From: Candidatus Poribacteria bacterium
GTDB taxonomy: Bacteria > Poribacteria > WGA-4E > JAJDTR01
Reading direction: 5' to 3'
DNA: 64,000 nt
NCBI GenBank assembly: GCA_965222225.1
Contig: CBDCTK010000002.1
Span: 1,280,001 to 1,344,000 of the forward strand
The notes below the pieces were generated by a model. The model had not been told where the DNA came from. It was given only the letters and a program-made list of their open reading frames with translations, and did no database searches. Position 1 is the first letter of the stretch, and every line of letters begins with the position of its first letter. Both the position numbers and the translations under genes were made by a program. Shown one piece after another: positions 5,780-39,681 of the stretch.

Positions 5780-7666
5780 ATGGGACAACGTTACATCTTG
5801 GCACTGGTACTAATGATAATTGTGATGTTTGCTTGGAGCCTGTTATTCGGCAACCGATTGTCGAAGCAGAGAACCGCGCAGAAAGAAGGGCAAACATCCG
5901 AACAGACAAGCGAAACTCAATCTCCGCATGACGACGAAGACGTAGCAGATGCAGATGGACAACAAAGAACCGATGAAATAGAACGTAATACGCAAATCCA
6001 ACAAAGCGCGGAAGCACACATTCGGACAGATCGATACGAGATTACTTTTGCAACCAATCCTGGCGCTGGAACAGTTGTTGCCCGAGAATGGTCTCTTCGG
6101 ACATATCAAGATCGCTCCGACACTGGCGAACTCTTGAACCTTATCCCAACAACTTCCCAAAATTGGTTGGCACTTTGGTTTTCCCATCCACAATTGCAGC
6201 TAGACGTGAGACAGTCAGTGTGGACCGTGGATAAAACAGAAGTGGACCTCACCGGGGAGAGTCCTGAGGTAGAGGACTCCATTACTTTTACCGCGCAGAT
6301 TGGCGAAAACCTGAAGTTTTCGAAAGAGTTTACCTTTTACCGAGATAGCTACTATGTTGACCTTGAGTTGAAATTTCAGAATCTATCGAATGACACTCTG
6401 TCCGTATTGCAAGTGACGAATGAGAATCAGGAAAATGGATACAAACTTCGCTGTGGCCCTGGAATAGACGCAGATCTGCTGCCCCATGAGCGACAGCATG
6501 GCGGGAAAGGTCGATGGGGGAAAAACGCAGGTGCCAGAGCTTATACCGGGGTCGGCAAGGCGGAGAGAGAACTCCGTGACTCACAGCTTAGAGAACCGGT
6601 CCTTTGGGCAGGGCTAAATAGTAACTATTTTGCTGCACTAATGATCCCCGAGCCTGGGTTAAACACTCAATATCGTTTAGAGGAACTCAAGGACAACGGC
6701 ACACCGTCCACGCCCAATGTTGCAGCGCCAGCTGAAACCGCTAGTTTGATGATTCCGGGTTTTCCATTAGAGTCAAACGGTAGACGTACACACATCTTTC
6801 GCATCTACGTCGGCCCTAAGGATGCCGCTATCCTAAAACAGATTCAAGCGCCGGTTTTGCCTGAAACTCCGATTAGACTCTCGAAAATCATAGATTTCGG
6901 GTTCTTCTGGCCTGTCGCTTGGGCATTGCTTTGGCTACTTAATGGGTTGCACGGAGTCTTTCGGAACTACGGCGTCGCCATTATTCTGCTAACTGCGTTA
7001 GTGAAGGTAGTTTCATATCCGCTGACGCACAAGGGACACAAATCAATGAAAGAGATGCAGAAGCTGCAACCCCTCCTTACTGAACTGCGGGAGAAACACA
7101 GAGACGATCCCCAGAAACTGAATAAGGCGACAATGCGATTGTACAAGGAACACGGCGTAAACCCACTAGGAGGCTGCATCCCCTATCTGCCTCAGATACC
7201 AGTCTTCATTGCGCTATTCTCGTTGCTGGGCAGTGCGGTTGAACTGCGCGGTGCCCCATTCCTTTTGTGGATAAACGATCTGTCTGCTCCCGATGCCATA
7301 GTTGTTCTCCCCTTCACCATACCTCTCGTCAACATAGATACGCTTCGGCTTTTACCACTGCTTAATGGACTAACAACGTGGCTACAACAGAAGGTAATGG
7401 GTAATATGACGCCTGTTACCGATAATATGCAAGCAAAACTAATGCAGTTCATGCCGCTCATTTTCGTTTTTCTCTTTTATAATTGGGCAGCAGGATTCGT
7501 GCTATACTGGTTATTTAACAATGTCTTCACCGTTGGACAACAATATCTCCAGTCGCGCGGGTCAAATGGTGCAGATGAAACGATTGCAAAATCCGCGGCG
7601 TCGACTAAAACGCCTGATTCACCGAGAAAACTTTCCACTTCATCAAAACAGAAGCAAAACAAATAA
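5780..7666 (+). CDS. yidC: Membrane protein insertase
   Basis: YVGPK, NYGVAIILLT, SMKEMQKLQP, GVNPLGGC, WINDLSAPD, LYWLFNN. Confidence 0.95.
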   Translation: MGQRYILALVLMIIVMFAWSLLFGNRLSKQRTAQKEGQTSEQTSETQSPHDDEDVADADGQQRTDEIERNTQIQQSAEAHIRTDRYEITFATNPGAGTVVAREWSLRTYQDRSDTGELLNLIPTTSQNWLALWFSHPQLQLDVRQSVWTVDKTEVDLTGESPEVEDSITFTAQIGENLKFSKEFTFYRDSYYVDLELKFQNLSNDTLSVLQVTNENQENGYKLRCGPGIDADLLPHERQHGGKGRWGKNAGARAYTGVGKAERELRDSQLREPVLWAGLNSNYFAALMIPEPGLNTQYRLEELKDNGTPSTPNVAAPAETASLMIPGFPLESNGRRTHIFRIYVGPKDAAILKQIQAPVLPETPIRLSKIIDFGFFWPVAWALLWLLNGLHGVFRNYGVAIILLTALVKVVSYPLTHKGHKSMKEMQKLQPLLTELREKHRDDPQKLNKATMRLYKEHGVNPLGGCIPYLPQIPVFIALFSLLGSAVELRGAPFLLWINDLSAPDAIVVLPFTIPLVNIDTLRLLPLLNGLTTWLQQKVMGNMTPVTDNMQAKLMQFMPLIFVFLFYNWAAGFVLYWLFNNVFTVGQQYLQSRGSNGADETIAKSAASTKTPDSPRKLSTSSKQKQNK

Positions 7667-29198: not shown

Positions 29199-29474
29199 AT
29201 GGACTCTGAAGAACTTGAAACAGTAAAAGTTGATATCTTTAATAATCAGTACGCTATAAAACCTACTGATAATTTGAGTGAAGATGATATTCGTGTTTTG
29301 GCGAGTTATGTCGACAAACTGATGCGTCAGGTTAGTCGAAAGGGATACGATCAACTGAGTGTAGCAATTCTTGTTGCCCTGAACTTGGCTGAACAGATGT
29401 ATAAAGAACAGAAAAACTTTTCGGATTTCCTTCACGGTTTGATTCAAGGCATAGATGAAGTTGTAAAGCGATAG
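29199..29474 (+). CDS. zapA: Cell division protein ZapA
   Basis: VKVDIFNNQY, LASYVDKLMR, AILVALNLA pattern. Confidence 0.85.
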   Translation: MDSEELETVKVDIFNNQYAIKPTDNLSEDDIRVLASYVDKLMRQVSRKGYDQLSVAILVALNLAEQMYKEQKNFSDFLHGLIQGIDEVVKR

Positions 29475-29585
29475 GATAATCTATCAAACTGCGAGGCTGT
29501 TTAGAAAAGCCATCGACCACGTCTTGGGCATGCAACGGGTACAGTCAAATCCCGCTTGTTTCACGCCCACCGAATCTTATATAAG

Positions 29586-29692
29586 CTCTAATATCCCTTT
29601 TCGGGGCATAGACTGCAACCACGGATGGGCTGGGCGGGCTACGTCAGTTATTTGACTTTCAGTCCCCTTTTCATCGGGGCATAGGCTGCAAC
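29586..29692 (-). CRISPR. Mini CRISPR array: one 37-bp repeat, one 36-bp spacer, one degenerate terminal repeat
   Basis: Repeat GTTGCAGCCTATGCCCCGATGAAAAGGGGACTGAAAG (29692-29656), spacer 29655-29620, degenerate repeat ending 29619; CCCC/GGGG hairpin and 8-nt ACTGAAAG handle. Confidence 0.8.
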
Positions 29693-29831
29693 CGACCTAA
29701 GATCGCTTGGCATCTACATTCCGTGATTTGCCTCTGAAACAGAATATCTTCATTTGTCTCGTTTCAACTCCCATTTCAGGCATTTCTTTCGCAAATAGAG
29801 GGGGGTTTTCCGCAGAAACTCAATTTGCGAA
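29693..29831 (-). promoter_or_regulatory. CRISPR leader, copy 1
   Basis: Abuts the intact repeat; distal inverted repeat TTCGCAAAT...ATTTGCGAA; near-identical copy at 30446-30584. Confidence 0.65.
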
Positions 29832-29881
29832 ACCGCTCCCGAACATGAGTGCCACCAATATGATAACAAAGATAATTAACG

Positions 29882-30397
29882 CTATTGTCCCGACTGAAGT
29901 TCCTGCCGAGAGATTGCCTTCCATCTATGTGCCAAAATACTTAGAAATTCATCGGCTTCGCTTTCTAACTGGGAAGATTTAGGCATCATATTCACCGGAT
30001 TTAGCGATTCCTGACGTGGCAAAAAGTGTTTTTCTATCGCAAAGTGAGCTTTGACGTTATAACCCTTATTATCACGGCACTTCACGACACTAGCGATGTC
30101 GTGTATGTTAAAACGCACAGTTGTGATGCCACAATATCCATCGTTGTGTTCTGGTTTAGGCGGATTTTTAGTATCGAGTTTACTTAACTGCATTTTAGCG
30201 AATGGTTCCATACAGGGGCCTCTCAAGATGACGACATGTCCATCTTCGGTTACATCGTCGCCTAAAGTTTCGCTTAAACGTTGATAATTGCCCGGAAAGT
30301 CTGCGACAATTCGATAACCGACTTCGTATGGCTCAACTTTAATGTGTGGTGCGTATATTAGATTGATTATCGCGCGACTTTCGATGAAAAAAAACAT
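29882..30397 (-). CDS. Hypothetical protein directly downstream of a solo CRISPR repeat
   Basis: Open frame of 171 aa from ATG 30397, preceded by GGAAGGG; no recognisable family. Confidence 0.6.
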   Translation of the reverse strand: MFFFIESRAIINLIYAPHIKVEPYEVGYRIVADFPGNYQRLSETLGDDVTEDGHVVILRGPCMEPFAKMQLSKLDTKNPPKPEHNDGYCGITTVRFNIHDIASVVKCRDNKGYNVKAHFAIEKHFLPRQESLNPVNMMPKSSQLESEADEFLSILAHRWKAISRQELQSGQ

Positions 30398-30408
30398 GAT
30401 TGTATTTC

Positions 30409-30445
30409 CCTTCCGACCCCTTTTCATCGGGGCATAGACTGCAAC
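30409..30445 (-). CRISPR. Solo CRISPR repeat with altered 3' handle
   Basis: GTTGCAGTCTATGCCCCGATGAAAAGGGGTCGGAAGG; 33/37 identical to the array repeat, hairpin intact. Confidence 0.7.
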
Positions 30446-30584
30446 CGACCTAAGATCGCTTGGCGTCTACATTCAGTGATTTGACTCTGAAACAGAATAT
30501 CTTCATTTGTCTCGTTTCAACTCCCATTTCAGGCATTTCTTTCGCAAATAGACGGGGGTTTTCCGCAACACATCAATTTGCGAA
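30446..30584 (-). promoter_or_regulatory. CRISPR leader, copy 2
   Basis: 139-bp direct repeat of 29693-29831 with about 8 substitutions counted by eye. Confidence 0.65.
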
Positions 30585-30595
30585 TTCTACTGAAG

Positions 30596-30934
30596 CTATT
30601 CGTTGGATTCATCTGATTGCCCATCAGCCCGGTCATCAATTCTTGACATGTGGTCGAGAAAGGCTTGTATTTTCTGGTGCTGTGCATTGATTGCTTCAAT
30701 TGACGATTTCATGTCTTCACAAATGTTTTGAAGAACATCTATGCCTTGTGTGCCCTGAAGGATTAGCTCGTAACTATAATCAGCCCATTCTTGGCGTTGA
30801 TTCCAAGCTCCTCGACATATAGCCATCCGTGAATCAAATGCTAGGGGAAGTACCAAAGTGTTGATATTGTCAAGCCGAACACCGGCTGAAACACAAAGGG
30901 CATCCTTGATTGAACTGTTCTGCTTGAGTACCAT
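30596..30934 (-). CDS. Hypothetical protein, possibly a 5'-truncated remnant
   Basis: 112-aa ORF ending 11 bp from leader copy 2; no clear RBS; IS1595 just upstream. Confidence 0.4.
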   Translation of the reverse strand: MVLKQNSSIKDALCVSAGVRLDNINTLVLPLAFDSRMAICRGAWNQRQEWADYSYELILQGTQGIDVLQNICEDMKSSIEAINAQHQKIQAFLDHMSRIDDRADGQSDESNE

Positions 30935-31079
30935 ATCGACGACATTTTTACATTCATTTACGGAATTAGTAGCTTGTAGCTTTTAGACTGACGACAAACA
31001 TAAAACTTGGTACCCTGTCGTAAATCTTTTCGTCACACGTAGATGTCCATAGTGACTATTCTTCTCGTAGGAGTTTGCT

Positions 31080-31934
31080 ATGGACATTTTGAATCTTATG
31101 AAAGAGTTTCCAAATCAAGAATCTTGTCTCAGATTTATAGAGGAAAAACGTTGGAAGGACGGTGTTTGCTGTATCCACTGTGGCAGTGAAAAAGTTGGAC
31201 GCAAGAACAAAAACGACATTACTACTGGTTGGAATTGCTACGATTGTGAATCTAGCTTTTCGGCTACAGCAGGAACCATCTTCCATGGTACCAAGATACC
31301 TCTCCAGAAATGGTTTTTGGCTATCTCAATTCTTTCCAATGCCAAGAAAAGCATATCGAGTTGTCAGCTTGCTCGTGACTTGGACATGAATCAAAAGTCC
31401 GCTTGGTATATGGCAATGCGCCTCCGTGAGAAAATGAGTGATAGTGATGAATTGCTGAAAGGGATAGTTGAAGCGGACGAAACCTATGTCGGCGGCAAAC
31501 CCAGAGCAAAATCTAAGAGAGGTAGAGGCACAAATAAATCTCCCGTCATCGGCGTAGTCGAGAGAGGCGGTCGGGTGGTTGCTAAATTCATGAAGGTTCT
31601 ATCTGGTGAAAATATCAGAGAATTCATCCTTAGCAATGTCTCACCCGATGAGTCTATTCTTATGACTGATGAATTTCGCTCTTACAATAGTCTGGACGAA
31701 GATATCGAAAGACATGTTATCCATCACCAAGAGAGATATGTTTCTGAGGACGGCGTAACTCACACCAACACCATCGAGTCGTTTTGGGCTTGTGTCAAGA
31801 GGTCATTCTACGGAACGCATCATCACTACAGCAAGAAGTGGCTGCCACTGTATATCATGGAGTCTTGCTGGAAATATAATCGCAGAAAAGATGATGAGAT
31901 TTTCATAAGATTTTTTGATGAATGCTTCACCTGA
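31080..31934 (+). mobile_element. IS1595 family transposase (ISXO2-like DDE with zinc ribbon)
   Basis: RW.DG.CCIHCG, CYDC..FSATAGTIFHGTK, VEADETYVGGK, ILMTDE, HTNTIESFW; element ends not identified. Confidence 0.92.
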
Positions 31935-32200
31935 GCCACATGAATTGTTTGGCTATCGGTATATTCTGTCAACGACAACATCATGGTGTGCTGAAAATCC
32001 CATAGTGTTGGAAATTAAAATCCCGCAGATAACCCGCAATGCTCCCGCGAGCATGTACAAACGCTTGGTCAACATGATATGCCTCCATTTCTCTCTTATA
32101 GAGATGTATTTTAGTGTGAATCAAGATTCCGAACACTGTCTAAAATGATTGTACATTAAGAAGAGAAAAGCAAGCAAATCGACCAAAAAGCAGTTAACTA

Positions 32201-32521
32201 CTAAGTCCCTTCATTTATCTTCAGTCTTTCTTCAATAATGGCAAGAGTTAACACCCATTGACTGTCTTCATCCTTAAGTCGGAAAATCTGACAGCCTTGC
32301 GTTATTCCAATTTCCTTACGATCGACTTTCCATTGAATACCTTTCGGAAGCTGAAAGATGTGATGTCTGTCACCCAAGTAACCGGGGGACACATCCAAAC
32401 TACTCGCCATTGCTGTATAAGAACCGAAATCGCCGTACAACACGTCTACAGCCTCCCCTATTTCAGAGGGGAGTTTCCCGTTTAGGACCTGTAAATACTC
32501 GCGTGCCACCTCCTTATTCAT
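32201..32521 (-). CDS. ParB-type HTH/central DNA-binding domain-only protein
   Basis: EIGEAV..LY..FGSY..MASSLDVS....FQLP..IQWKV...EIG resembles the ParB HTH/KorB region; start overlaps upstream stop. Confidence 0.55.
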   Translation of the reverse strand: MNKEVAREYLQVLNGKLPSEIGEAVDVLYGDFGSYTAMASSLDVSPGYLGDRHHIFQLPKGIQWKVDRKEIGITQGCQIFRLKDEDSQWVLTLAIIEERLKINEGT

Positions 32522-33396
32522 TATTTAGCCTCTCGTCTCATAAACTCTGTTATGATATGAGAACTGATTGTCGGTAGATCTATCAAGCCGCGCGATCTGC
32601 CCCAATTCGCTAACTCGGCACTAAGCCTAGAAGGAATTGTAATTCGTATCTCGCGGCTAGATTCGTCAATCTGTTTAGTAACATATTTATTCAAGTCTGC
32701 AATAGAGCTTTTGTGACCCGCCTCTTCTAAAGCCCCAATAGCATGTCGACGCCCTTCCCTGTCAAGACCTAAGTACCATGACACTCGGTCTCTCATCTTT
32801 TGTTGTGATTGTTCACGGTGCATACGGTCGTAAGTCTGTTGCACAATGGTATTCGCAGTCTTTACAGGAAGTGTTCCCGCATCTACTAATGGCATAAGAT
32901 CTTCAGGCAGTTCAGCCAAGCTATAATACCTCATAACGGTTTGTCGTGTTACGCCGAGATATCTGGCTGCAAGTTCGAGAGCGTCTCTTCCACTGTATTC
33001 TGGGGTAGTAAACGCCTTGTATATCCTTTCTGTCCAGTATGCTCGGTCGCTAAATGCCAAAGCCTCGTGTGACTCATCTTCTAACCACGAACGTTGAATA
33101 GCTTGTTCGTCGGTCAATTCCATTATGAAAGCAGGAATTTCTTTCAACCCAAGTTCTATACATGCCTTTAGCCTACATTGACCGGAAACATGCTGATAAT
33201 CGTATTCAGCGTTAGGGGTAGGGTGTGAGCGAACAACAATTGCATATTCCTGCATATAACCGTGTTGTTCAATAGACATTTTGATTCTATCAACATTTTG
33301 TTCTACGCCTTGTCTCCGAACATTGACGGGACTCGTAGGGTCAATTAGGCTTACCTCGATTTGCTTAACTTCACTCATTTCTGACATTCCTTTCAT
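32521..33396 (-). CDS. ParB/Srx N-terminal domain protein with HTH
   Basis: NVRR, SIEQHG, IVVR, VSGQCRLKAC..LGLKEIPA, AARYLGVTRQTV..YYSL.ELP. Confidence 0.8.
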   Translation of the reverse strand: MKGMSEMSEVKQIEVSLIDPTSPVNVRRQGVEQNVDRIKMSIEQHGYMQEYAIVVRSHPTPNAEYDYQHVSGQCRLKACIELGLKEIPAFIMELTDEQAIQRSWLEDESHEALAFSDRAYWTERIYKAFTTPEYSGRDALELAARYLGVTRQTVMRYYSLAELPEDLMPLVDAGTLPVKTANTIVQQTYDRMHREQSQQKMRDRVSWYLGLDREGRRHAIGALEEAGHKSSIADLNKYVTKQIDESSREIRITIPSRLSAELANWGRSRGLIDLPTISSHIITEFMRREAK

Positions 33397-33883
33397 GAGA
33401 GAAACAGTCGTAAGTTATCAACAACCTACTCAGCGTCTGCAGAAGTGGTATTGAATTATCAGTGAGGGATTCGCTTTATCGCTCTATCTCCGCTTCAAGG
33501 AATGACAAGGGCAGTTGCCGGGATTGACAACTGTGAAGCCCCTTGTCAAAAGCGATGGGGGATTATAGCAGGAAGGTGGGACGGGGTCAAGAAGAAACTG
33601 GTTAACGGCTATTCCGCGTCGTTGCCATCGTCGTCATGCGAATTTTTACTTAGCACCATCTGTAGCTTGCGCACGGATTCCATTTGCAAACCGAATCAAA
33701 TTTAGTTTTACGACTAGGACATAAGGCGACTAGGTCAAGCTGTCCACACTTCTCACCGTAGTGAAAATCGCCCTTGGACGTTTTGAAACGAAGGAGGCTG
33801 AGACTATACCGTTCTCCGCTTTTTATCGCCATTGGGGCGTGATTCGATACTGTTCAAATTCGTCGTATTCGGCTCTCGCCTTC

Positions 33884-34795
33884 TCACTTCCCATCCTTAT
33901 ACCACTTCACAGGGCTCCCTTCCCCCGCTGATTCCCTCACATACCGCGCCGGCATCGTCGGCTCCTGCCACCGCCCCGCCCGCTGCACCTCCTTCATTGT
34001 TGCTCCGGCGTCGGCAAGCGACACCGCAGACCCGATACGAAGCGAGTGTCCACCGATCAATCCCTCCACGCCAGCTTCCGCCGCCCGCCGCTGTATTGCT
34101 TCACGTGCCCCCTTCACGCCTAGCCGATCCTCAGTCACATGATTCTGGAAGCGTATCCTCCGGAACAGAGCCCCGGTCGCAATCCCCGCTCTCGTTCGAT
34201 ACCGCTCTATCGTCCGCCGTGTGGATTCGCAGATATACAGGACTTCGCCCCGCTGCTCCTCGTCTGCGTTTTTGCCGCGCACCTGAAGTCCCTCGGTTTT
34301 AACATCCTCCACATTGACCGCGACCGCCTCCGAGATGCGCAACAGGCAATCGCTCATCAGGCTTATCATGGCGGCATCCCGCAACCCCGCCGCTGTATCT
34401 GACGATTCCGACGCCGCGCACACCCGTTCCACTTCGTCCCACGTAAGCCCGTCGACCTGGCGGCGCGCCCGTTCTTTACCTTCTCCACGGATTTCAGACA
34501 TTGTCCGAGCCGTGATATCCCCAACCACAGTATCAGCCCCACGGTACTCAGCCATCCACTTCACCGCGGAAACGACCAGATTGATTGTAGCCGGCGACTT
34601 CCCCTCCGCATGCAGAAACCTGATATATTCCGCCAACACCGCATCGGTAAGCGTTCGTCCCTCCAGCCAAACTTCCAGCTTGCGCGTCGCGTGCTCGTAC
34701 GCCTTGAGCGTGTTATCCGCCACGTTCGCCCGAATCTCCTCCCCCGTGCCGGCGGCGATTCGCAAACCCCTGTCCGATTCCTTTCCTTGCTTCAT
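33884..34795 (-). CDS. Tyrosine recombinase, Cre-like
   Basis: RDAAMI..MSDCLLRISE, GHSLRIG, AGRW, MPARY catalytic set; GAGGG RBS before ATG 34795. Confidence 0.88.
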   Translation of the reverse strand: MKQGKESDRGLRIAAGTGEEIRANVADNTLKAYEHATRKLEVWLEGRTLTDAVLAEYIRFLHAEGKSPATINLVVSAVKWMAEYRGADTVVGDITARTMSEIRGEGKERARRQVDGLTWDEVERVCAASESSDTAAGLRDAAMISLMSDCLLRISEAVAVNVEDVKTEGLQVRGKNADEEQRGEVLYICESTRRTIERYRTRAGIATGALFRRIRFQNHVTEDRLGVKGAREAIQRRAAEAGVEGLIGGHSLRIGSAVSLADAGATMKEVQRAGRWQEPTMPARYVRESAGEGSPVKWYKDGK

Positions 34796-34919
34796 GATAA
34801 AACCCTCGTCAGACCTACGCAACTGTTGCCATATTCATCGACCGTCCAAGTTGTCCCACGGTATCTGGCACGCCAAGTGAATACGGCAACACGAACGTCG
34901 TTACCTACAGTTTGTAGGG

Positions 34920-35075
34920 TGCGATCAAAGGAATGAATAATGACTGCGATAGAGATCCACTGCGATCAAGCAAATGAATAATGAGCGCGATAGAAATCCT
35001 ACCAGCCTCTAAAAGCCCCAGCGGGGATCAAACGAACGATCAACTGAGTGGTTAGCGAAGGCGATAGCAATCCCA
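34920..35075 (+). repeat. Three copies of a ~41-bp repeat (CGATCAA..TG.ATAA.GA..GCGATAG..ATCC)
   Basis: Units at 34920, 34961 (period 41) and about 35035. Confidence 0.75.
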
Positions 35076-35165
35076 TAGGTATGTAGCAGCCAACAATGAA
35101 AACATGAAAAAACTTTCTACAAATGACCAAAAATGGCTTTGCCACCGATTATTCAAACAGGTTCT
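35060..35165 (+). repeat. ~105-bp direct repeat, copy 1
   Basis: AGGTATGTAGCAGCCAACAATGAAAACATG...CCACCGATTATTCAA also at 38103-38208. Confidence 0.85.
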
Positions 35166-36178
35166 TAGAACACACCCTCCCTGACCATCGATCGGCTCAA
35201 CCTCTTCACCACCGACGGCGTCACCGGATCGTTGTCCGGGAGGAATCCCTTACCCTTCTTTAGTTTAACAGAAGCAACACTGTCCAGCTCAGTCAACTCC
35301 TTTGCCCCTTGCAATGCCTTTAGATCGCCCCCGTAGTAATCGTACCAAGGCAGCCCCGCGTTTGTGTAATTCTGAGCCGTCGGCGGCTTACTTGGCGGCT
35401 GGCACCCCGTCAAGTGCAAGAGCTGAACGCTATTGACGATATGCACGAAGCAGCGTGAGCCGTTCGACGTGTCCCACGCATCGATACCGTGTTCGTCCTC
35501 ATATATCTCCTGCCGCATCAAACCCCCCGGCGCCAACCCCATATCGGGAGGTGGTGCGGCACTCGGGGCCGCCATATCATGTAGTATTCCCTCCGGGACG
35601 CGATGCATTTCTTCATACGTCGACCGGTTCATGGGGTAGACCGCAATCTGAAGCCCCCCATGTTCCGCCTCTCCAGTCATCTGCTCCTCCGCCGTGTAAC
35701 CCTCACCCAGCGGCATCGCCACGAACTGCCGAATCAAGCCCTTCTCCACGCAGAACCCGTCCACCCACGGCTGTTCCGGAACCACCACGTAGTCCTGCGG
35801 TTCCCCGCTGAGTTCCTCCTCCCATGCCTCTCCGGTCACCGCGTTCACCTTGCCCGCCGCAATCTTCACCGCCATCGGATAGTCGCCGCGAAAATTAATC
35901 CACAGCGCTTCCGCTTGGTACATGGGGATGAATACCCCTCCATGTTCTGCCCACCTATCCGGCAAGTTATCCGGATAGTCGTCCACGCGGCTCAGCGGAA
36001 ATTCACCGAGTCCCGGCGGGAGATAATGTTCCCGGTTGTCGTCCGGAATCCGCAGCGTCCGTTGGAATCCAATCTCGACTTCCGCATCCTCGTGTACTCC
36101 CGCAAACCGAAAGATAAGTTGATCGTCTCTAAGTTCGATTGTCTTTTTCCTGTTCCTAGTCCTTTTCGCCATTATCAT
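35165..36178 (-). CDS. Conserved hypothetical protein (FQRTLRIPDD/LPPGLG family)
   Basis: Long ORF with FQRTLRIPDD, PMYQAEALWINF, QPWVDG, QFVAMPLGEG, GLPWYDYY; start reassigned to ATG 36178. Confidence 0.8.
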   Translation of the reverse strand: MIMAKRTRNRKKTIELRDDQLIFRFAGVHEDAEVEIGFQRTLRIPDDNREHYLPPGLGEFPLSRVDDYPDNLPDRWAEHGGVFIPMYQAEALWINFRGDYPMAVKIAAGKVNAVTGEAWEEELSGEPQDYVVVPEQPWVDGFCVEKGLIRQFVAMPLGEGYTAEEQMTGEAEHGGLQIAVYPMNRSTYEEMHRVPEGILHDMAAPSAAPPPDMGLAPGGLMRQEIYEDEHGIDAWDTSNGSRCFVHIVNSVQLLHLTGCQPPSKPPTAQNYTNAGLPWYDYYGGDLKALQGAKELTELDSVASVKLKKGKGFLPDNDPVTPSVVKRLSRSMVREGVF

Positions 36179-36371
36179 AGCCCTCTCTTTTTGAATTCGT
36201 GACGTGAAATGAGTAAACCACGCTAATACAAGGTACGTCTCATAACATGAATTATAAAACCTAACAACGTAAACGTCAAGCCTTTTTTTTGATTTAACAA
36301 CCACAAAGGTGCCCCTCTGGGAAGGCTCCCGGGCACCACCGAGACTCTCACCCTCTTCGAGAATATCGAAT

Positions 36372-36472
36372 AGCGATCAACTGAGTGGATAACGAAGGCG
36401 ATAGAAGATCCCTCAAGGGAATGGATAATGACCGCGATAGTAAATCTCTCAGTGAAGGCGATAGATAATCCC
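36372..36472 (+). repeat. Second cluster (three copies) of the GCGATAG..ATCC repeat
   Basis: GCGATCAACTGAGTGGATAACGAAGGCGATAG matches the 35035 unit; two further partial units. Confidence 0.75.
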
Positions 36473-36643
36473 GTGTGATAGCACTCCCACCTCTCTCCAC
36501 CGCCTTACTCACGATTTCCAAACCAAAATCGCTTTCATCATTGAAATCCGCCGCTGAAAATGATATAGTAGAAATCACCTTACCCCATCAATGTACAACC
36601 CCTGCTAGATGTAGATTTCTGACTGTCGCCGGGAGAATCTTCC

Positions 36644-38091
36644 ATGCGTTTTCAGATTAGATTAGTCGCGGTCCTGCTCGCCCTACTCCTCTCCCTACTG
36701 ACCCATGCCTCATCCCGGTCGGTGCCGCAACTCGCCGAAAAAGCACTAGCCGCAACTGTTTCCCTGGAGGTACAGGACGAAAACGGCGTTACACTCGGTC
36801 AAGGCAGTGGGTTCTTCGTGCGCCCCAACCTCATCGCCACGAACTTCCACGTTATTGACGGCGCTGCGAAGGGCATCGCAAGACTAGTCAACAAAGGCAC
36901 CGCATACCCTATCGAAGGCCTTGCTGGCACCGATGAAATCAACGACCTCGCACTCCTCAGAGTCACTATTCACGGCGTCATCCCCCTTTCCCTCGGCGAT
37001 AGCGACAAGGTTCAAACTGGCCAAACCGTTTACGTGGCGGGCAATCCTCTAGGCTTTGACGGCACGTTTTCTGACGGTATTGTTAGTAGCCGGCGTAACA
37101 CTTACGGAATTGAACGCCTTCAGATGACTGCCCCGATCTCCTCCGGCAGCAGCGGTGGTCCCGTGCTCAACACCAGCGGCGAAGTCATTGGCGTTTCCGT
37201 GTCAACCTTCAGCCCACTTTTTGGGCAAAATCTCAATTTTGCGATACCATCCAACTCGCTGAGGGAGTTGCTCGCACGCTCTCGCCAGGCTAAGCCGATG
37301 TTGTATTCGAAACAAACGACATCTGCCGATACTTTCCGACAAAGAGGTTGGGAGAAGTTTCGACTGGGGGACTATAATGGGGCGCTTGTCGATTTCGCAA
37401 ACGCGATTCGTTTAAGTCCTGACAATTCTGTTCTCTATGCCATGCGTGGACACGCGAAGCACTCTTTGGGACAATACGCTAGCGCCGTGGATGACTATAA
37501 TACAGCCATCCGCGTCGATCCAAACTATGCCACAGCTTGCGTGGGGCGCGGGCACGCAAAAGAGCAACTCAATCAACTTGATGCCGCCATCGCTGACTAT
37601 GCCACGGCCATCCGACTCAATCCAAACGATGCCTACGTTTACGTACAACGCGGTAGGGCCAAAAACCTATTGGGGCGAAGCTTTGATGCTATCGCCGACT
37701 ATGACTCTGCAATCCGCCTCGCCCCTGAGGATTCCTCCGCCTACTTCTATCGGGGAAATGCCAAATCAGTCCTGGAACAACACTTCGCAGCAATCTCGGA
37801 CTACGACATCGCGATTCGCCTCGACCCGGAAGATGCTGCCGGTTACTTGAATCGAGGCGCTTCGAAAGCCGCCTTGAACCATATTCGGCCGCCATCGCCG
37901 ATTACGATTTCGCCATCCGGCTTAATCCTGACTTAGCCCTAGCCTACAAGAATCGCGGCTTGTCAAAGTACACCCTCAACCAAGTTCACCGGGCAAAGCA
38001 AGATCTAAACATTGCGCTGAAATTGGCGAAGCAGCAAGGAAATCACAGCCTCGAAGCAGGGATTCAGGACTGGCTTCGGCGACTAGATTAA
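36644..38091 (+). CDS. Exported trypsin-like serine protease with TPR repeats, frameshifted near 37881
   Basis: GSGFFV, ATNFHV, DLALL, ISSGSSGGP; TPR array continues in another frame (YSAAIADYDFAIRLNPDLALAYKNRG) to TAA 38091. Confidence 0.85.
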
Positions 38092-38102
38092 CCGAACAAT
38101 CT

Positions 38103-38208
38103 GGCGATAGAGATCCCACAGGTATGTAGCAGCCAACAATGAAAACATGGAAAAACTTTCTCAAAATTCTCAAAAATGGCTTTACCACCGATTATTCAAC
38201 CAGGCTCT
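38103..38208 (+). repeat. ~105-bp direct repeat, copy 2
   Basis: Aligns over its length with 35060-35165. Confidence 0.85.
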
Positions 38209-38745
38209 CAGGCCCTAACGTCGATTGACAGAATCCTCCTGCCCGTGTCCATCACAGGATTGGCGGCATCATTAGGAAAGTAACCTGAGGCCTACCTTTA
38301 TGCTTACACCGGGAGTTGGTTATTGCTCACTTATTGGATATTTCTATCTTGGCGCTATAGGACAAGGCAGGACGAGAGATTTGACATAGTGAGGGACATG
38401 GAATCTTGCCTCGGATTCGAAGCACACCGCCTATTGAAGAAGATTCAATGGCCTCCTCGGGACAGGTGTTTGAGGTGGATTTTCTACTGGCTCGTGGTTT
38501 TTCTTGCGGCAGTTGCAGGTGCGATACACCACTGCGTTCCGCGAGTGTCCGGCGTCTGGCTTTGGCGAATACTGCCATGGTGTATACTACCGGTGACTTC
38601 CTTTATTTTCTAGTACGACATCAAGAGACTTTCCAAAAGAAAGGCTCATCAGGATTCAAAATAAAAACTGCCTCGATTGCTCGACTGAACAACACTACGC
38701 AGACTGTCCAGTCATGCTTCGTCAATCGAGTAGATGCACTTTGAC

Positions 38746-39402
38746 TTACACTCCGTTCTTCATCACTGCTAAGTAATTTGCCGTCGCCTGGTTCGGCTCC
38801 GCTTTCAATCCACTTGCTATCGCCGCTACATATTTCACAGTGTCACGCCAGTGGCTTGTGTCAACTCTCGACGTCGGCCGATGCGCGTGTTGCGTCTCAA
38901 GGTATAGCAAATGCCCCTTTCGGCAGCCGTACGTAAAGATGTCGCGGGTAATCTTTGTGTCGTTCATGCAATATTCTTTCACACGGTCAATCTCTCCATT
39001 GCGAAACCAATTGATAGCCTGTGTACCGTCTCCTGTTTTTTTCGCGTTCAGCGTGGCTTGCACGATATGGTCTAGTTTTAGCCGGTGTCCGAGTGTTGCC
39101 GTGACGGCGACAAGCATGTCGAAGCTGCGCACTGACCAGAAATCGGCGTCTGAATACGCGGAAAGCACACGGTAATCAAAACGCAATTGGTTGAAACCCA
39201 CGACAAGCCCGGCGTTAAGAATTTCGTCGATTAATTCAGCGATGTTCGATTCTTCGAAACTATAAAACTGTCCGGTTCCCGAATCGTAGGAAGTGGCGGC
39301 CGAAACGCCCATTTGCGGGATGTTGTCCCAACCTCCCACTTCGTCTGCCAAGAATTTGGTTTCGATGTCGAAATACAAAATATTGTTTATCATCGAAGCC
39401 AT
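38746..39402 (-). CDS. RNase H-like (YprB/RNase_H_2) DEDD exonuclease
   Basis: YFDIET, VGFNQLRFDY, LKLD, EYCMND motifs. Confidence 0.8.
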   Translation of the reverse strand: MASMINNILYFDIETKFLADEVGGWDNIPQMGVSAATSYDSGTGQFYSFEESNIAELIDEILNAGLVVGFNQLRFDYRVLSAYSDADFWSVRSFDMLVAVTATLGHRLKLDHIVQATLNAKKTGDGTQAINWFRNGEIDRVKEYCMNDTKITRDIFTYGCRKGHLLYLETQHAHRPTSRVDTSHWRDTVKYVAAIASGLKAEPNQATANYLAVMKNGV

Positions 39403-39681
39403 GATTTACATTCCAAATTGGCTCAACCGCGGTAGGATTTAAGCCATTATGTTACTCACGTTGCACTCGCGTCCGAACCTCACTGTACCAAGGAGATTAC
39501 CATTTCCGCTTACTCCAAAACACTTGCTTTATAAAGTTATACGAGACGTGAAACCAGCGTTGATCGAGTTAATGAATAACACCCGACAACTCCAATTGGA
39601 GCACCTGAATTTCTTCTAACATCTTTAAAACGCGTTAGTGCACTAGTAACGAACATCCCTATCTCCCTCGTCATCAAGAAA

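What the first reader, a model, noticed from the sequence alone, without database searches (positions are those of the whole stretch)
30395..30445. Solo repeat keeps its hairpin but its handle has become a ribosome-binding site
Seen: the solo repeat is intact through CCCC-GATGAAAA-GGGG. The following 8 nt read TCGGAAGG instead of ACTGAAAG, giving GGAAGGG about 10 nt before ATG 30397. Three of the four differences from the array repeat fall in the handle. Inference: Cas6 could cut the mRNA just upstream of the RBS, coupling translation or stability of this gene to the presence of Cas6 without producing a loadable crRNA.
Basis: inference. Interest (0 to 1): 0.7.

Follow-up and report, generated by a model that had tools for sequence, protein, structure and literature searches.

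The report
Lone CRISPR repeat fused to gene
A single CRISPR repeat with its own leader sits directly in front of a gene on a mobile island of a Poribacteria genome, so the gene's messenger RNA probably carries a Cas6 cutting site; this is a variant of the known solitary repeats of mobile elements, and no control of the gene has been shown.

Summary
On the minus strand, 30445..30409 is a complete 37-nt repeat with an intact hairpin and three changes in its last 8 nt. GGAAGGG lies 10 nt before ATG 30397. That ATG starts a real 171-aa gene.

The repeat has its own 139-nt CRISPR leader (30584..30446), 94% identical to the leader of a one-spacer mini-array 753 nt downstream. Both lie at the edge of a ~10-kb integrase-bearing island. 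The only cas operon, including cas6, is 1.4 Mb away.

The "handle turned RBS" is better read as a recombination joint. The purine-rich stretch before the ATG recurs in distant homologues that have no repeat. Other strains lack the whole 826-nt cassette between two repeats.

With 11 nt between repeat and ATG, the gene's 5' UTR almost certainly contains the hairpin, so Cas6 cleavage 19 nt before the AUG is plausible. It is untested.

Supporting context: seven other ectopic repeats in this genome precede co-oriented ORFs, and 11 of 20 scanned Poribacteria cas6 genes carry hairpin, odd handle, RBS and ATG in that order. Against selection: no orthologous conservation was found.

Verdict: a new variant of a known kind (solitary repeat unit or collapsed orphan array).

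The parts
30446..30584 (-). Leader copy 2, the 139-nt CRISPR leader directly upstream of the solo repeat. It starts with the palindrome TTCGCAAAT...ATTTGCGAA.
   Evidence: It differs at 8, 10 and 7 of 139 positions (93-95% identical) from three other leader copies in the genome. It is 87% identical, together with the repeat, to the leader that heads a 6-repeat array in relative G002. The same palindrome stands at the start of the leader region of the cas-linked array.
30409..30445 (-). Solo 37-nt CRISPR repeat. Hairpin 30432..30417; altered last 8 nt (TCGGAAGG) 30416..30409; predicted Cas6 cut between 30417 and 30416.
   Evidence: The hairpin folds as in the array repeat, with one extra G.U pair. 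The nearest other repeat is 716 nt away.
30408..30414 (-). Shine-Dalgarno-like GGAAGGG, 10 nt before the ATG.
   Evidence: Sequence. SD motifs are enriched 5-9 fold before 2229 long ORFs of this genome. AAGGG occurs 87 times with a peak spacing of 8 nt and 9 cases at 10 nt. The stretch is shared with homologues that lack a repeat.
29882..30397 (-). Gene P0001, 171 aa, of unknown function and a small family restricted to this genus. A T8 run follows the ATG.
   Evidence: No match in Pfam, PHROGs or PADLOC. The AlphaFold model is poor, with mean pLDDT 45.7.
29693..29831 (-). Leader copy 1, the leader of the mini-array.
29597..29692 (-). Mini-array: repeat 29692..29656, 36-nt spacer 29655..29620, truncated repeat 29619..~29597.
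   Evidence: Rfam CRISPR-DR10 scores 26.2 bits, below its gathering score of 39. No target for the spacer was found.
30596..30934 (-). ORF P0002, 112 aa, unknown function. It ends 11 nt before leader copy 2.
   Evidence: No family match.
30952..32222 (+). IS1595-family insertion sequence, present in about 47 copies in the genome.
   Evidence: Pfam DDE_Tnp_IS1595, E 1.2e-36. Copies at 98.7-100% identity.
29510..39650 (.). Genomic island of about 10 kb that carries all of the above plus two ParB-like genes, a tyrosine integrase (33884-34822, minus strand), a 379-aa ORF, a TPR-trypsin gene and an exonuclease-like gene.
   Evidence: In 5 of 9 genus relatives, zapA is followed within about 250-300 nt by the sequence that lies at window 39.63-39.70 kb. 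Gene families.
29199..29474 (+). zapA, the core gene that flanks the island. It converges on the mini-array.
   Evidence: Pfam ZapA, E 6.2e-10. Found in 10 of 10 genus genomes.

Best explanation
The feature is a collapsed orphan CRISPR unit, one leader plus one repeat, on a ~10-kb mobile island. Recombination between repeats joined it, at or next to the Cas6 cut site, to the native ribosome-binding region of a cargo gene (P0001).

Shown:
- the anatomy of the locus;
- the duplicated leader;
- the real gene and its start codon;
- the island;
- one cognate cas6 elsewhere in the genome;
- variant strains that lack the 826-nt cassette.

Inferred:
- Only 11 nt separate the repeat from the ATG, so the gene must be transcribed from the leader or from further upstream. 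Its 5' UTR therefore contains the Cas6 hairpin.
- When Cas6 is present it cuts between 30417 and 30416. This leaves an mRNA with a 5'-OH end and a 19-nt UTR that still holds the RBS. Cas6 stays on the upstream leader fragment.
- The next repeat downstream (29692..29656) would give the excised RNA a Cas6-bound 3' hairpin. The gene would then be carried like an oversized spacer.
- The non-canonical 8 nt at the new 5' end should keep Cas5/Cas8 from loading on the messenger.

Whether this changes the gene's expression is open. I regard cleavage as more likely than not, and selected regulation as possible but unproven.
For: Anatomy and chance.

The upstream 139 nt is a true leader. It heads a 6-repeat array in G002 and shares its palindrome with the leader of the cas-linked array.

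Gene and start codon: the homologues are 171, 172, 162, 165 and 165 aa. Four begin MF[FIL]xI, as P0001 does. The 172-aa one has that motif after a 10-residue extension of its called N-terminus.

Joint rather than drift:
- The last 8 nt differ at 3 of 8 positions, against 7-11 of 168 elsewhere (Fisher p 0.006-0.018). The other three leader-repeat copies show 0 of 8 differences among themselves.
- GGAAATACA before the ATG is shared with the G005 homologue, and AAGGGAAAYAC with the G000 paralogue.

Recombination between repeats: contigs of two runs join 29600 to 30427 across a shared 20 nt, skipping the 826 nt in between.

Cognate Cas6: PF10040, E 5.4e-18, one copy in the genome, lying in a type I operon. 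Array repeats in the genus carry the same hairpin.

Precedent within the clade: 11 of 20 scanned Poribacteria cas6 loci carry an intact repeat hairpin, then a non-canonical 8 nt (ACAAYATA), then an RBS, 22-23 nt before the cas6 ATG.

Recurrence in this genome: 8 of 12 ectopic repeat units are followed within 1-112 nt by a co-oriented ORF. Two of those ORFs are flanked by repeats on both sides.

From the literature (passages read in PMC10651486): Cas6f binds and cuts a solitary repeat, changes to the 8-nt handle are tolerated, the 5'-OH product is more stable, and a solitary repeat can share a transcript with a gene 11 nt away.
Against: - No promoter was detected in the leader. The consensus scan found 3 sites in 29400-31000 against 3.3 expected, none of them in the leader.
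- No RNA end data exist. The RNA-library runs are held as contigs.
- The arrangement is young and not conserved. Homologues of P0001 in G005 and G002 have no repeat upstream. The same holds for homologues of two other repeat-preceded ORFs.
- Some strains lack the cassette.
- This genome's CRISPR locus looks eroded. Repeats of the main array are split by short inserted elements, and the hairpin before its own cas6 is degenerate. Cas6 expression is therefore uncertain.
- The base after the cut site is U instead of A, which adds a G.U pair to the stem. This might shift or weaken cleavage.
Confidence: 0.5

Rival explanations
1. Neutral remnant. The solo repeat is what is left of an orphan array after repeat-to-repeat recombination, a leader plus a degenerate terminal repeat. 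It happens to abut a cargo gene. It has no effect on that gene beyond supplying read-through transcription, and Cas6 is irrelevant, either absent or unable to cut.
For: - Terminal repeats of arrays are commonly degenerate at their 3' end (recalled knowledge, not from a call).
- The 826-nt cassette is gained or lost between strains across a shared 20 nt of repeat.
- There is no orthologous conservation of repeats before homologous genes.
- The genome is full of IS and short repeated elements, and its main array is broken up.
Against: - The hairpin is perfect while the adjacent 8 nt differ at 3 of 8 positions.
- 8 of 12 ectopic repeats in this genome are co-oriented with an ORF that starts 1-112 nt downstream.
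- The same hairpin-RBS-ATG layout is conserved before cas6 across the order. Such layouts can therefore be functional in this clade.
Confidence: 0.3
2. RNA anti-CRISPR (Racr-like) decoy. The island expresses leader plus hairpin as a small RNA. This RNA ties up Cas6, and Cas7 without Cas5/Cas8, and so protects the island from the host type I system. P0001 may be a co-transcribed anti-defence protein.
For: It meets the published description of solitary repeat units:
- a single repeat-like unit with no other repeat within 100 bp;
- located on a mobile element;
- downstream of a presumed promoter;
- matching the host's own repeat type.

The handle is dispensable for the known Racr, and racr and acr can share one transcript 11 nt apart (PMC10651486, passages read). 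The island carries an integrase and ParB-like genes.
Against: - The same island carries a mini-array with a canonical repeat and the same leader, and that array needs the host's Cas proteins.
- Leader-repeat units with canonical handles stand before other ORFs elsewhere in the genome.
- The repeat was not found in the viral collection.
- P0001 has no known family.
- Every ordinary array also yields a leader-hairpin fragment, so nothing in the anatomy is specific to inhibition.
Confidence: 0.1
3. crRNA-like regulatory guide (CreA/CreR/crlRNA type). The RNA downstream of the solo repeat, or the spacer of the neighbouring mini-array, guides Cascade to repress a promoter by partial complementarity.
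For: Degenerate mini-arrays with a conserved 39-nt spacer occur beside cas genes in relatives G004, G008 and G009. This is the layout described for type I-B in PMC10120712 (passages read) and in the preprint 10.1101/2023.03.10.532045 (passages read).
Against: - The 36 nt after the solo repeat match only themselves in the genome.
- The mini-array spacer has no match of 17 nt with up to 3 mismatches elsewhere in the window.
- Its best genomic partial match (18 nt, 1 mismatch, E 0.39) lies at the end of a 497-aa gene, not in a promoter.
- The altered 8 nt should prevent Cascade loading.
Confidence: 0.05

Closest known systems
Solitary repeat units (SRUs) of mobile elements and RNA anti-CRISPRs (Racrs); Camara-Wilpert et al. 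2023, PMC10651486 (passages read)
   Same: - A single CRISPR-repeat copy on a mobile element, away from cas genes and behind a presumed promoter.
- The hairpin matches the host's repeat.
- The 8-nt handle is not canonical.
- It can share a transcript with a neighbouring gene 11 nt away.
   Different: - Here the repeat carries a full 139-nt CRISPR leader.
- It lies upstream of the gene, not downstream, and directly abuts the gene's RBS.
- The same island also holds a working-looking mini-array.
- No anti-CRISPR activity is shown.
Degenerate mini-CRISPRs that encode regulatory crRNA-like RNAs (CreA, CreR, crlRNA); PMC10120712 (passages), 10.1101/2023.03.10.532045 (passages), 10.1101/2024.12.27.630466 and 10.1101/2024.10.29.618823 (abstracts)
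   Same: - Ectopic repeats with a conserved hairpin and a degenerate rest.
- They lie next to the gene that is regulated.
- In Poribacteria such a unit stands 22-23 nt before cas6, with the same hairpin, odd 8 nt, RBS and ATG order as in the finding.
   Different: - Those elements act through a spacer that pairs with a promoter. No such target exists here.
- The proposed action here is RNA cleavage in the 5' UTR, not DNA binding.
Orphan or fragmented CRISPR arrays and their degenerate terminal repeats (array fragmentation in cyanobacteria: 10.1101/2020.04.14.041012, passages; terminal-repeat degeneracy is recalled)
   Same: - Leader plus repeat located far from cas genes.
- The 3' end of the last repeat is degenerate.
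- Units are gained and lost by recombination between repeats.
   Different: - There are zero spacers.
- The repeat is joined to an RBS 11 nt before a start codon.
- A protein gene occupies the place of a spacer between two repeats.
Engineered Csy4/Cas6 cleavage sites placed between promoter and RBS to insulate gene expression
   Same: A Cas6-type hairpin immediately upstream of an RBS, so that cleavage yields a short, defined 5' UTR.
   Different: That design is man-made. A natural counterpart that controls an ordinary gene did not turn up in my three searches, which cover open-access papers and bioRxiv only.

Membership tests
CRISPR array (minimal or orphan) | A leader sequence directly upstream of the first repeat | tested here: met
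   A 139-nt leader, differing at 7-10 of 139 positions from three other copies. Leader plus repeat is 87% identical to the unit that heads a 6-repeat array in G002.
CRISPR array (minimal or orphan) | At least two repeats separated by a spacer of about 30-40 nt | tested here: not met
   The next repeat lies 716 nt downstream, beyond a 171-aa gene and a second leader.
CRISPR array (minimal or orphan) | Repeat matches the repeats handled by a Cas system of the same genome | tested here: met
   The hairpin and 3' part are shared with the cas-linked array at C2:2.7055-2.708 Mb, while the 5' 12 nt differ. The type I cas operon includes cas6.
Solitary repeat unit / Racr candidate | A single repeat-like unit with no full or partial repeat within 100 bp | tested here: met
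   the only other hairpin in the window is 753 nt away.
Solitary repeat unit / Racr candidate | Carried by a virus, provirus or plasmid | tested here: inconclusive
   It lies in a ~10-kb island with an integrase, ParB-like genes and an IS, which is absent at this site in 5 of 9 relatives. No virion or conjugation genes were seen. The repeat was not found in the viral collection.
Solitary repeat unit / Racr candidate | Inhibits the cognate CRISPR-Cas system | not testable with these tools
   This needs an interference assay.
crRNA-like regulator (CreA/CreR/crlRNA) | A spacer-like segment partially complementary to a PAM-flanked site in a promoter | tested here: not met
   Searches gave only self matches and one chance-level match (E 0.39) at the end of a gene.
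Cas6 substrate | The repeat hairpin of the cognate system is present and able to fold | tested here: met
   CCCC-GATGAAAA-GGGG is identical to array repeats. It is predicted to fold, at -10.3 kcal/mol for the 37-mer.
Cas6 substrate | Cleaved by Cas6 at the 3' base of the stem | not testable with these tools
   The RNA runs are held as contigs, which cannot show ends.
Shine-Dalgarno ribosome-binding site | A purine-rich match to the anti-SD at the spacing used in this genome | tested here: met
   AAGGG and GAAGG lie 10-11 nt before the ATG. In the genome, peak spacings are 8-9 nt and the range is about 5-12 nt.

The most novel reading that the evidence does not exclude
In this Poribacteria lineage, CRISPR leader-repeat units have been taken over as Cas6-dependent expression cassettes for cargo genes of mobile islands. 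Genes sit between repeats like oversized spacers (repeat-ORF-repeat). They are transcribed from CRISPR leaders, and Cas6 cuts them out as single messengers with a short defined 5' UTR. A degenerate handle keeps Cascade off the RBS. This would be a natural counterpart of engineered Csy4 insulators. It would tie the expression of island genes to the state of the host's CRISPR system.
Probability: 0.2. Interest if true: 0.8.

Novelty: new variant of a known kind. Interest (0 to 1): 0.5.

Why it matters
If Cas6 does process this messenger, it would be a natural case of a CRISPR nuclease shaping the 5' end of an ordinary mRNA. Until now that has been an engineering trick. It would also extend the known roles of ectopic repeats, as decoys and as promoter-targeting guides, to post-transcriptional control.

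The locus shows how such units could arise. Recombination between repeats moves a gene-plus-leader cassette in and out.

It offers compact test objects: a 200-nt leader-repeat-RBS module and one 312-aa Cas6. The conserved hairpin-RBS-ATG layout before cas6 in Poribacteria is a second object, and probably a better one, because it is conserved across the order.

If the repeat has no effect, the locus is an ordinary product of array fragmentation in a repeat-rich genome.

Tried and rejected
Searches and tests that led nowhere:
- Target search for a regulatory guide. The spacer, and the 36 nt after each leader-repeat unit, gave only self matches and chance-level partial matches against the genome. 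The window held none. The viral collection held no exact match to the first 22 nt of the spacer.
- Wider occurrence. The repeat-RBS-ATG junction was not found in genome contigs. The repeat was not found in viral contigs or metagenome contigs. No relative of P0001 was found in metagenome contigs. All of these scans may leave out records close to the window's own genome.
- Function of P0001. Pfam, PHROGs and PADLOC gave nothing. The AlphaFold model had mean pLDDT 45.7, so I ran no fold search. The ESM Atlas gave no usable hit.
- RNA families. Rfam found only a sub-threshold CRISPR-DR10 match on the array repeat, and nothing in two relatives' empty sites. There are no tRNA genes in the window.
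- Promoter and terminator scan of 29400-31000: no more sites than in shuffles, and none in the leader.
- RNA evidence. RNA-library contigs cover parts of the leaders and of P0001, but contigs cannot show starts, ends or levels. I draw no conclusion on expression or cleavage from them.
- The predicted pairing of the RBS with the U8 run after the AUG is not stronger than in shuffles (z -0.2). I dropped it as a mechanism.
- Orthologous conservation. Homologues of P0001 and of the ORFs at 5.087 and 3.228 Mb in other species have no repeat upstream.
- Attachment-site repeats at the island ends: only one 10-nt direct match, and it does not lie at the right boundary.

Technical failures:
- A fuzzy regex scan of the genome timed out. 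I replaced it with BLAST and a vector scan.
- One search used a slice that was off by one for one leader copy. One search is the corrected count.
- Supplementary files of PMC10651486 (SRU lists) and PMC10120712 (mini-array lists) could not be opened. They may already list repeats of this kind.

Full report
THE OBSERVATION

On the minus strand the window reads GTTGCAGTCTATGCCCCGATGAAAAGGGGTCGGAAGG (30445..30409), then GAAATACAATC, then ATG at 30397. The nearest array repeat (29692..29656) is GTTGCAGCCTATGCCCCGATGAAAAGGGGACTGAAAG.

The match is not chance. The 37-mer with up to 3 mismatches matches once, and none of 100 shuffles gave a match. The 16-nt hairpin with up to 2 mismatches matches twice against 0.07 expected.

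WHAT SURROUNDS IT

The solo repeat is not bare. A 174-nt direct repeat (29658-29831 and 30411-30584, 94% identical, spacing 753) shows that each of the two repeats is preceded by the same 139-nt sequence.

That sequence is a CRISPR leader, on two grounds:
- In G002, a species of the same genus, an 87%-identical copy heads an array of six repeats identical to the solo repeat's first 29 nt plus ACTGAAAG.
- Its opening palindrome (TTCGCAAAT...ATTTGCGAA) also opens the leader region of this genome's cas-linked array.

Read 5' to 3' on the minus strand, the locus is:
- ORF P0002;
- leader copy 2;
- the solo repeat;
- 11 nt;
- gene P0001;
- about 50 nt;
- leader copy 1;
- a repeat;
- a 36-nt spacer;
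- a truncated repeat;
- the end of the island, with zapA converging.

There are no cas genes in 19-42 kb of the window. The genome's single cas6 lies 1.4 Mb away in a type I operon: a WYL regulator, cas6, cas3, a cas8-like gene, cas7, cas5, cas1 and cas4. The array next to that operon has a repeat with the same hairpin type and the same last 8 nt, but a different 5' half.

THE ISLAND

In 5 of 9 other genomes of the genus, zapA is followed after about 250-300 nt by the sequence found at window 39.63-39.70 kb. In the other 4, the 1.5-kb flank held no match to that sequence.

Window ~29.51-39.65 kb is therefore an insertion of about 10 kb. It carries a tyrosine integrase, two ParB-like genes and an IS1595 copy, among other genes. 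The IS1595 family has about 47 copies in the genome. The titles of relatives' records name the group Candidatus Poribacteria.

THE GENE AND ITS START

P0001 (171 aa) has these relatives:
- a 98%-identical 171-aa protein;
- a 37%-identical 172-aa protein;
- a paralogue in the same genome;
- homologues in G005 and G002.

P0001 and four of the five relatives begin MF[FIL]xI. The 172-aa protein has that motif after a 10-residue extension of its called N-terminus. They share blocks such as LINLNF, VVILRGPC and DIASVVKW. The ATG at 30397 is therefore the start.

The gene's function is unknown. Pfam, PHROGs and PADLOC give nothing, the structure model is poor, and the protein atlas gives nothing.

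IS THE ALTERED HANDLE A MUTATED HANDLE OR A JOINT?

Against each of the three other leader-repeat copies, the solo unit differs at 7-11 of 168 positions outside the last 8 nt, but at 3 of 8 inside them (Fisher p 0.006-0.018). Those three copies have 0 of 8 differences among themselves. The excess is local.

The stretch just before the ATG looks native to the gene. GGAAATACA is shared with the G005 homologue, which is 38% identical in protein and has a TATAAT-like box and no repeat upstream. AAGGGAAAYAC is shared with the G000 paralogue.

Canonical SD motifs are enriched 5-9 fold before 2229 long ORFs of this genome. AAGGG occurs before only 87 of them, so the shared stretch is not simply the generic RBS.

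Contigs from two runs join 29600 directly to 30427 across 20 shared repeat bases and skip 826 nt: P0001, leader copy 1, a repeat and the spacer. A contig from a third run keeps the P0001-solo repeat junction with 3 differences in 600 nt.

I conclude that recombination between repeats moves this cassette in and out. I also conclude that the odd 8 nt mark the place where a repeat was joined to the gene's own RBS, not a handle that drifted into an RBS. GGAAGGG at 10-11 nt is within the range used here, on its long side.

HOW IT MOST LIKELY WORKS

Only 11 nt lie between the repeat and the ATG, and no promoter fits there. The consensus scan proposes only a site whose -10 box abuts the ATG. The messenger must therefore start in the leader or further upstream, and it must contain the hairpin. 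This is an inference.

The hairpin is identical to hairpins of arrays in this genus and folds as expected. If Cas6 is made, cleavage between 30417 and 30416 is the expected outcome. That leaves a 19-nt 5' UTR with the RBS and a 5'-OH end.

Published work on a solitary repeat of a prophage reports the following (PMC10651486, passages read):
- Cas6f binds and cuts such a unit.
- Changes to the 8-nt handle are tolerated.
- The 5'-OH product is more stable.

The non-canonical 8 nt would be expected to prevent Cas5/Cas8 loading on the messenger. That expectation rests on established knowledge of type I complexes and was not tested here.

CONTEXT THAT RAISES PLAUSIBILITY

First, ectopic repeats before ORFs recur in this genome. 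A genome-wide hairpin scan and BLAST found 12 ectopic repeat units, and 8 are followed by a co-oriented ORF that starts 1-112 nt after the repeat. Of the other 4, one is the mini-array repeat (29692..29656) at the island's end and three are degenerate hits. One of those three (C2:3457134) lies in a conserved gene and looks like a chance match.
- At 5.058 Mb the order is leader, repeat, ORF, repeat, ORF, degenerate repeat, ORF.
- At 5.087 Mb an ORF is flanked by repeats on both sides.
- The sample is small and the loci are not independent, so I make no statistical claim.

Second, a conserved precedent exists before cas6. I scanned 20 Poribacteria cas6 loci (L069-L088) out of 28 returned; the 8 distant ones were not scanned. 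Of the 20:
- 11 carry an intact hairpin (GACGCGATGAAAAGCGG), then a non-canonical 8 nt (ACAAYATA), then an RBS, 22-23 nt before the cas6 ATG;
- one carries a degenerate copy in that place;
- one (L071) has a hairpin only further upstream, at -111;
- 7 have none.

Some of them also have a first repeat-like unit and a 39-nt spacer upstream. This is the mini-array layout described upstream of cas6 for type I-B systems (PMC10120712).

The order hairpin, odd 8 nt, RBS, ATG is thus maintained by selection at least once in this clade.

CONTEXT THAT LOWERS IT

- Homologues of P0001, and of two other repeat-preceded ORFs, have no repeat upstream in other species. These junctions are young, and nothing shows purifying selection on them.
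- This genome's main array has repeats split by short inserted elements, and the hairpin before its own cas6 is degenerate. The system may be decaying.
- No RNA ends could be examined.

RIVAL EXPLANATIONS

- Neutral remnant of array fragmentation (0.3). This fits the recombination evidence and the lack of conservation.
- Racr-like decoy (0.1). This fits the published definition of solitary repeat units. It sits oddly with a canonical mini-array under the same leader on the same island.
- Promoter-targeting crRNA-like guide (0.05). No target was found.

COMPARISON WITH WHAT IS KNOWN, AND VERDICT

The feature is closest to solitary repeat units of mobile elements and to collapsed orphan arrays. 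It shares its layout with the cas6-proximal degenerate repeats of its own clade. It differs in three ways: it carries a full leader, it abuts an RBS, and a protein gene occupies the place of a spacer.

Three literature searches (open-access PubMed Central and bioRxiv only) turned up no description of a natural Cas6 site controlling an ordinary messenger. Supplementary lists of the two most relevant papers could not be opened.

I file it as a new variant of a known kind. Interest is 0.5. The bold reading, Cas6-dependent expression cassettes for island genes, has a probability of about 0.2.

Noticed in passing
Outside the window: L069-L088 (cas6 loci of Poribacteria genomes), about 20-40 nt upstream of cas6: Of 20 scanned loci, 11 have an intact repeat hairpin GACGCGATGAAAAGCGG followed by ACAAYATA and an RBS, 22-23 nt before the cas6 ATG. 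Some also have a first repeat-like unit and a 39-nt spacer upstream, so this is a CreR-like mini-array whose second repeat lies in the cas6 5' UTR. In G000 itself the hairpin is degenerate (L007:~6180-6200).
   Followed up: partly
Outside the window: G000:C2:2705500-2708000 (L007/L008): The cas-linked array has at least 8 repeats split in or next to the hairpin loop by inserted short repeated elements. The ends of these elements (TTGATC...GATCAA) flank partial copies of the hairpin.
   Followed up: no
window 34906-35170 and 36367-36481: Short repeated units of about 40 nt, seen as a 41-nt tandem repeat at 34920-34999. They match hundreds of places in the genome, including the insertions in the main CRISPR array.
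   Followed up: no
window 30952-32222: An IS1595-family element with about 47 near-identical copies (98.7-100%) in the genome, so it appears to be very active. It interrupts the run of minus-strand island genes upstream of P0002.
   Followed up: partly
window 33824-37000: The integrase, the 379-aa ORF and their flank have a 91%-identical copy at C2:0.458 Mb. Copies of 78-88% identity lie at 3.335, 3.990 and 4.162 Mb. This looks like a multi-copy mobile module.
   Followed up: no
window 30386-30394 (minus strand, directly after ATG 30397): A run of eight T follows the start codon (MFFF). One low-depth contig of an RNA library has seven T, which would break the frame. This may be phase variation or an assembly error. 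Homologues have no such run.
   Followed up: no
window 30425-30427 (minus strand): The ATG inside the hairpin loop is in frame with P0001, with no stop in between. That is why the mechanical ORF list gives 181 aa. Homologues support the downstream ATG.
   Followed up: yes
window 30541-30584 and 29788-29831; also L007:17110-17154 and G000:C2:3228186-3228241: The palindrome TTCGCAAAT-N26-ATTTGCGAA opens every copy of the orphan leader and also the leader region of the cas-linked array. At 3.228 Mb it stands alone directly before a repeat. It may be a binding site for a regulator, such as the WYL protein encoded before cas6.
   Followed up: no
Outside the window: G000:C2:5054865-5059800 and 5087195-5087900 (L009, L010, L097); G002:C1:2.292-2.295 Mb (L026, L064, L099): Repeat-ORF-repeat arrangements, with small membrane or secreted protein genes lying between CRISPR repeats. 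The G002 region holds homologues of several of the same ORFs and a solo repeat with a partial leader.
   Followed up: partly
window 29600/30427: Contigs of two RNA-library runs join these two points across 20 shared bases. Strains therefore exist in which leader copy 2 is followed directly by the truncated repeat, and P0001 is absent from this site.
   Followed up: partly
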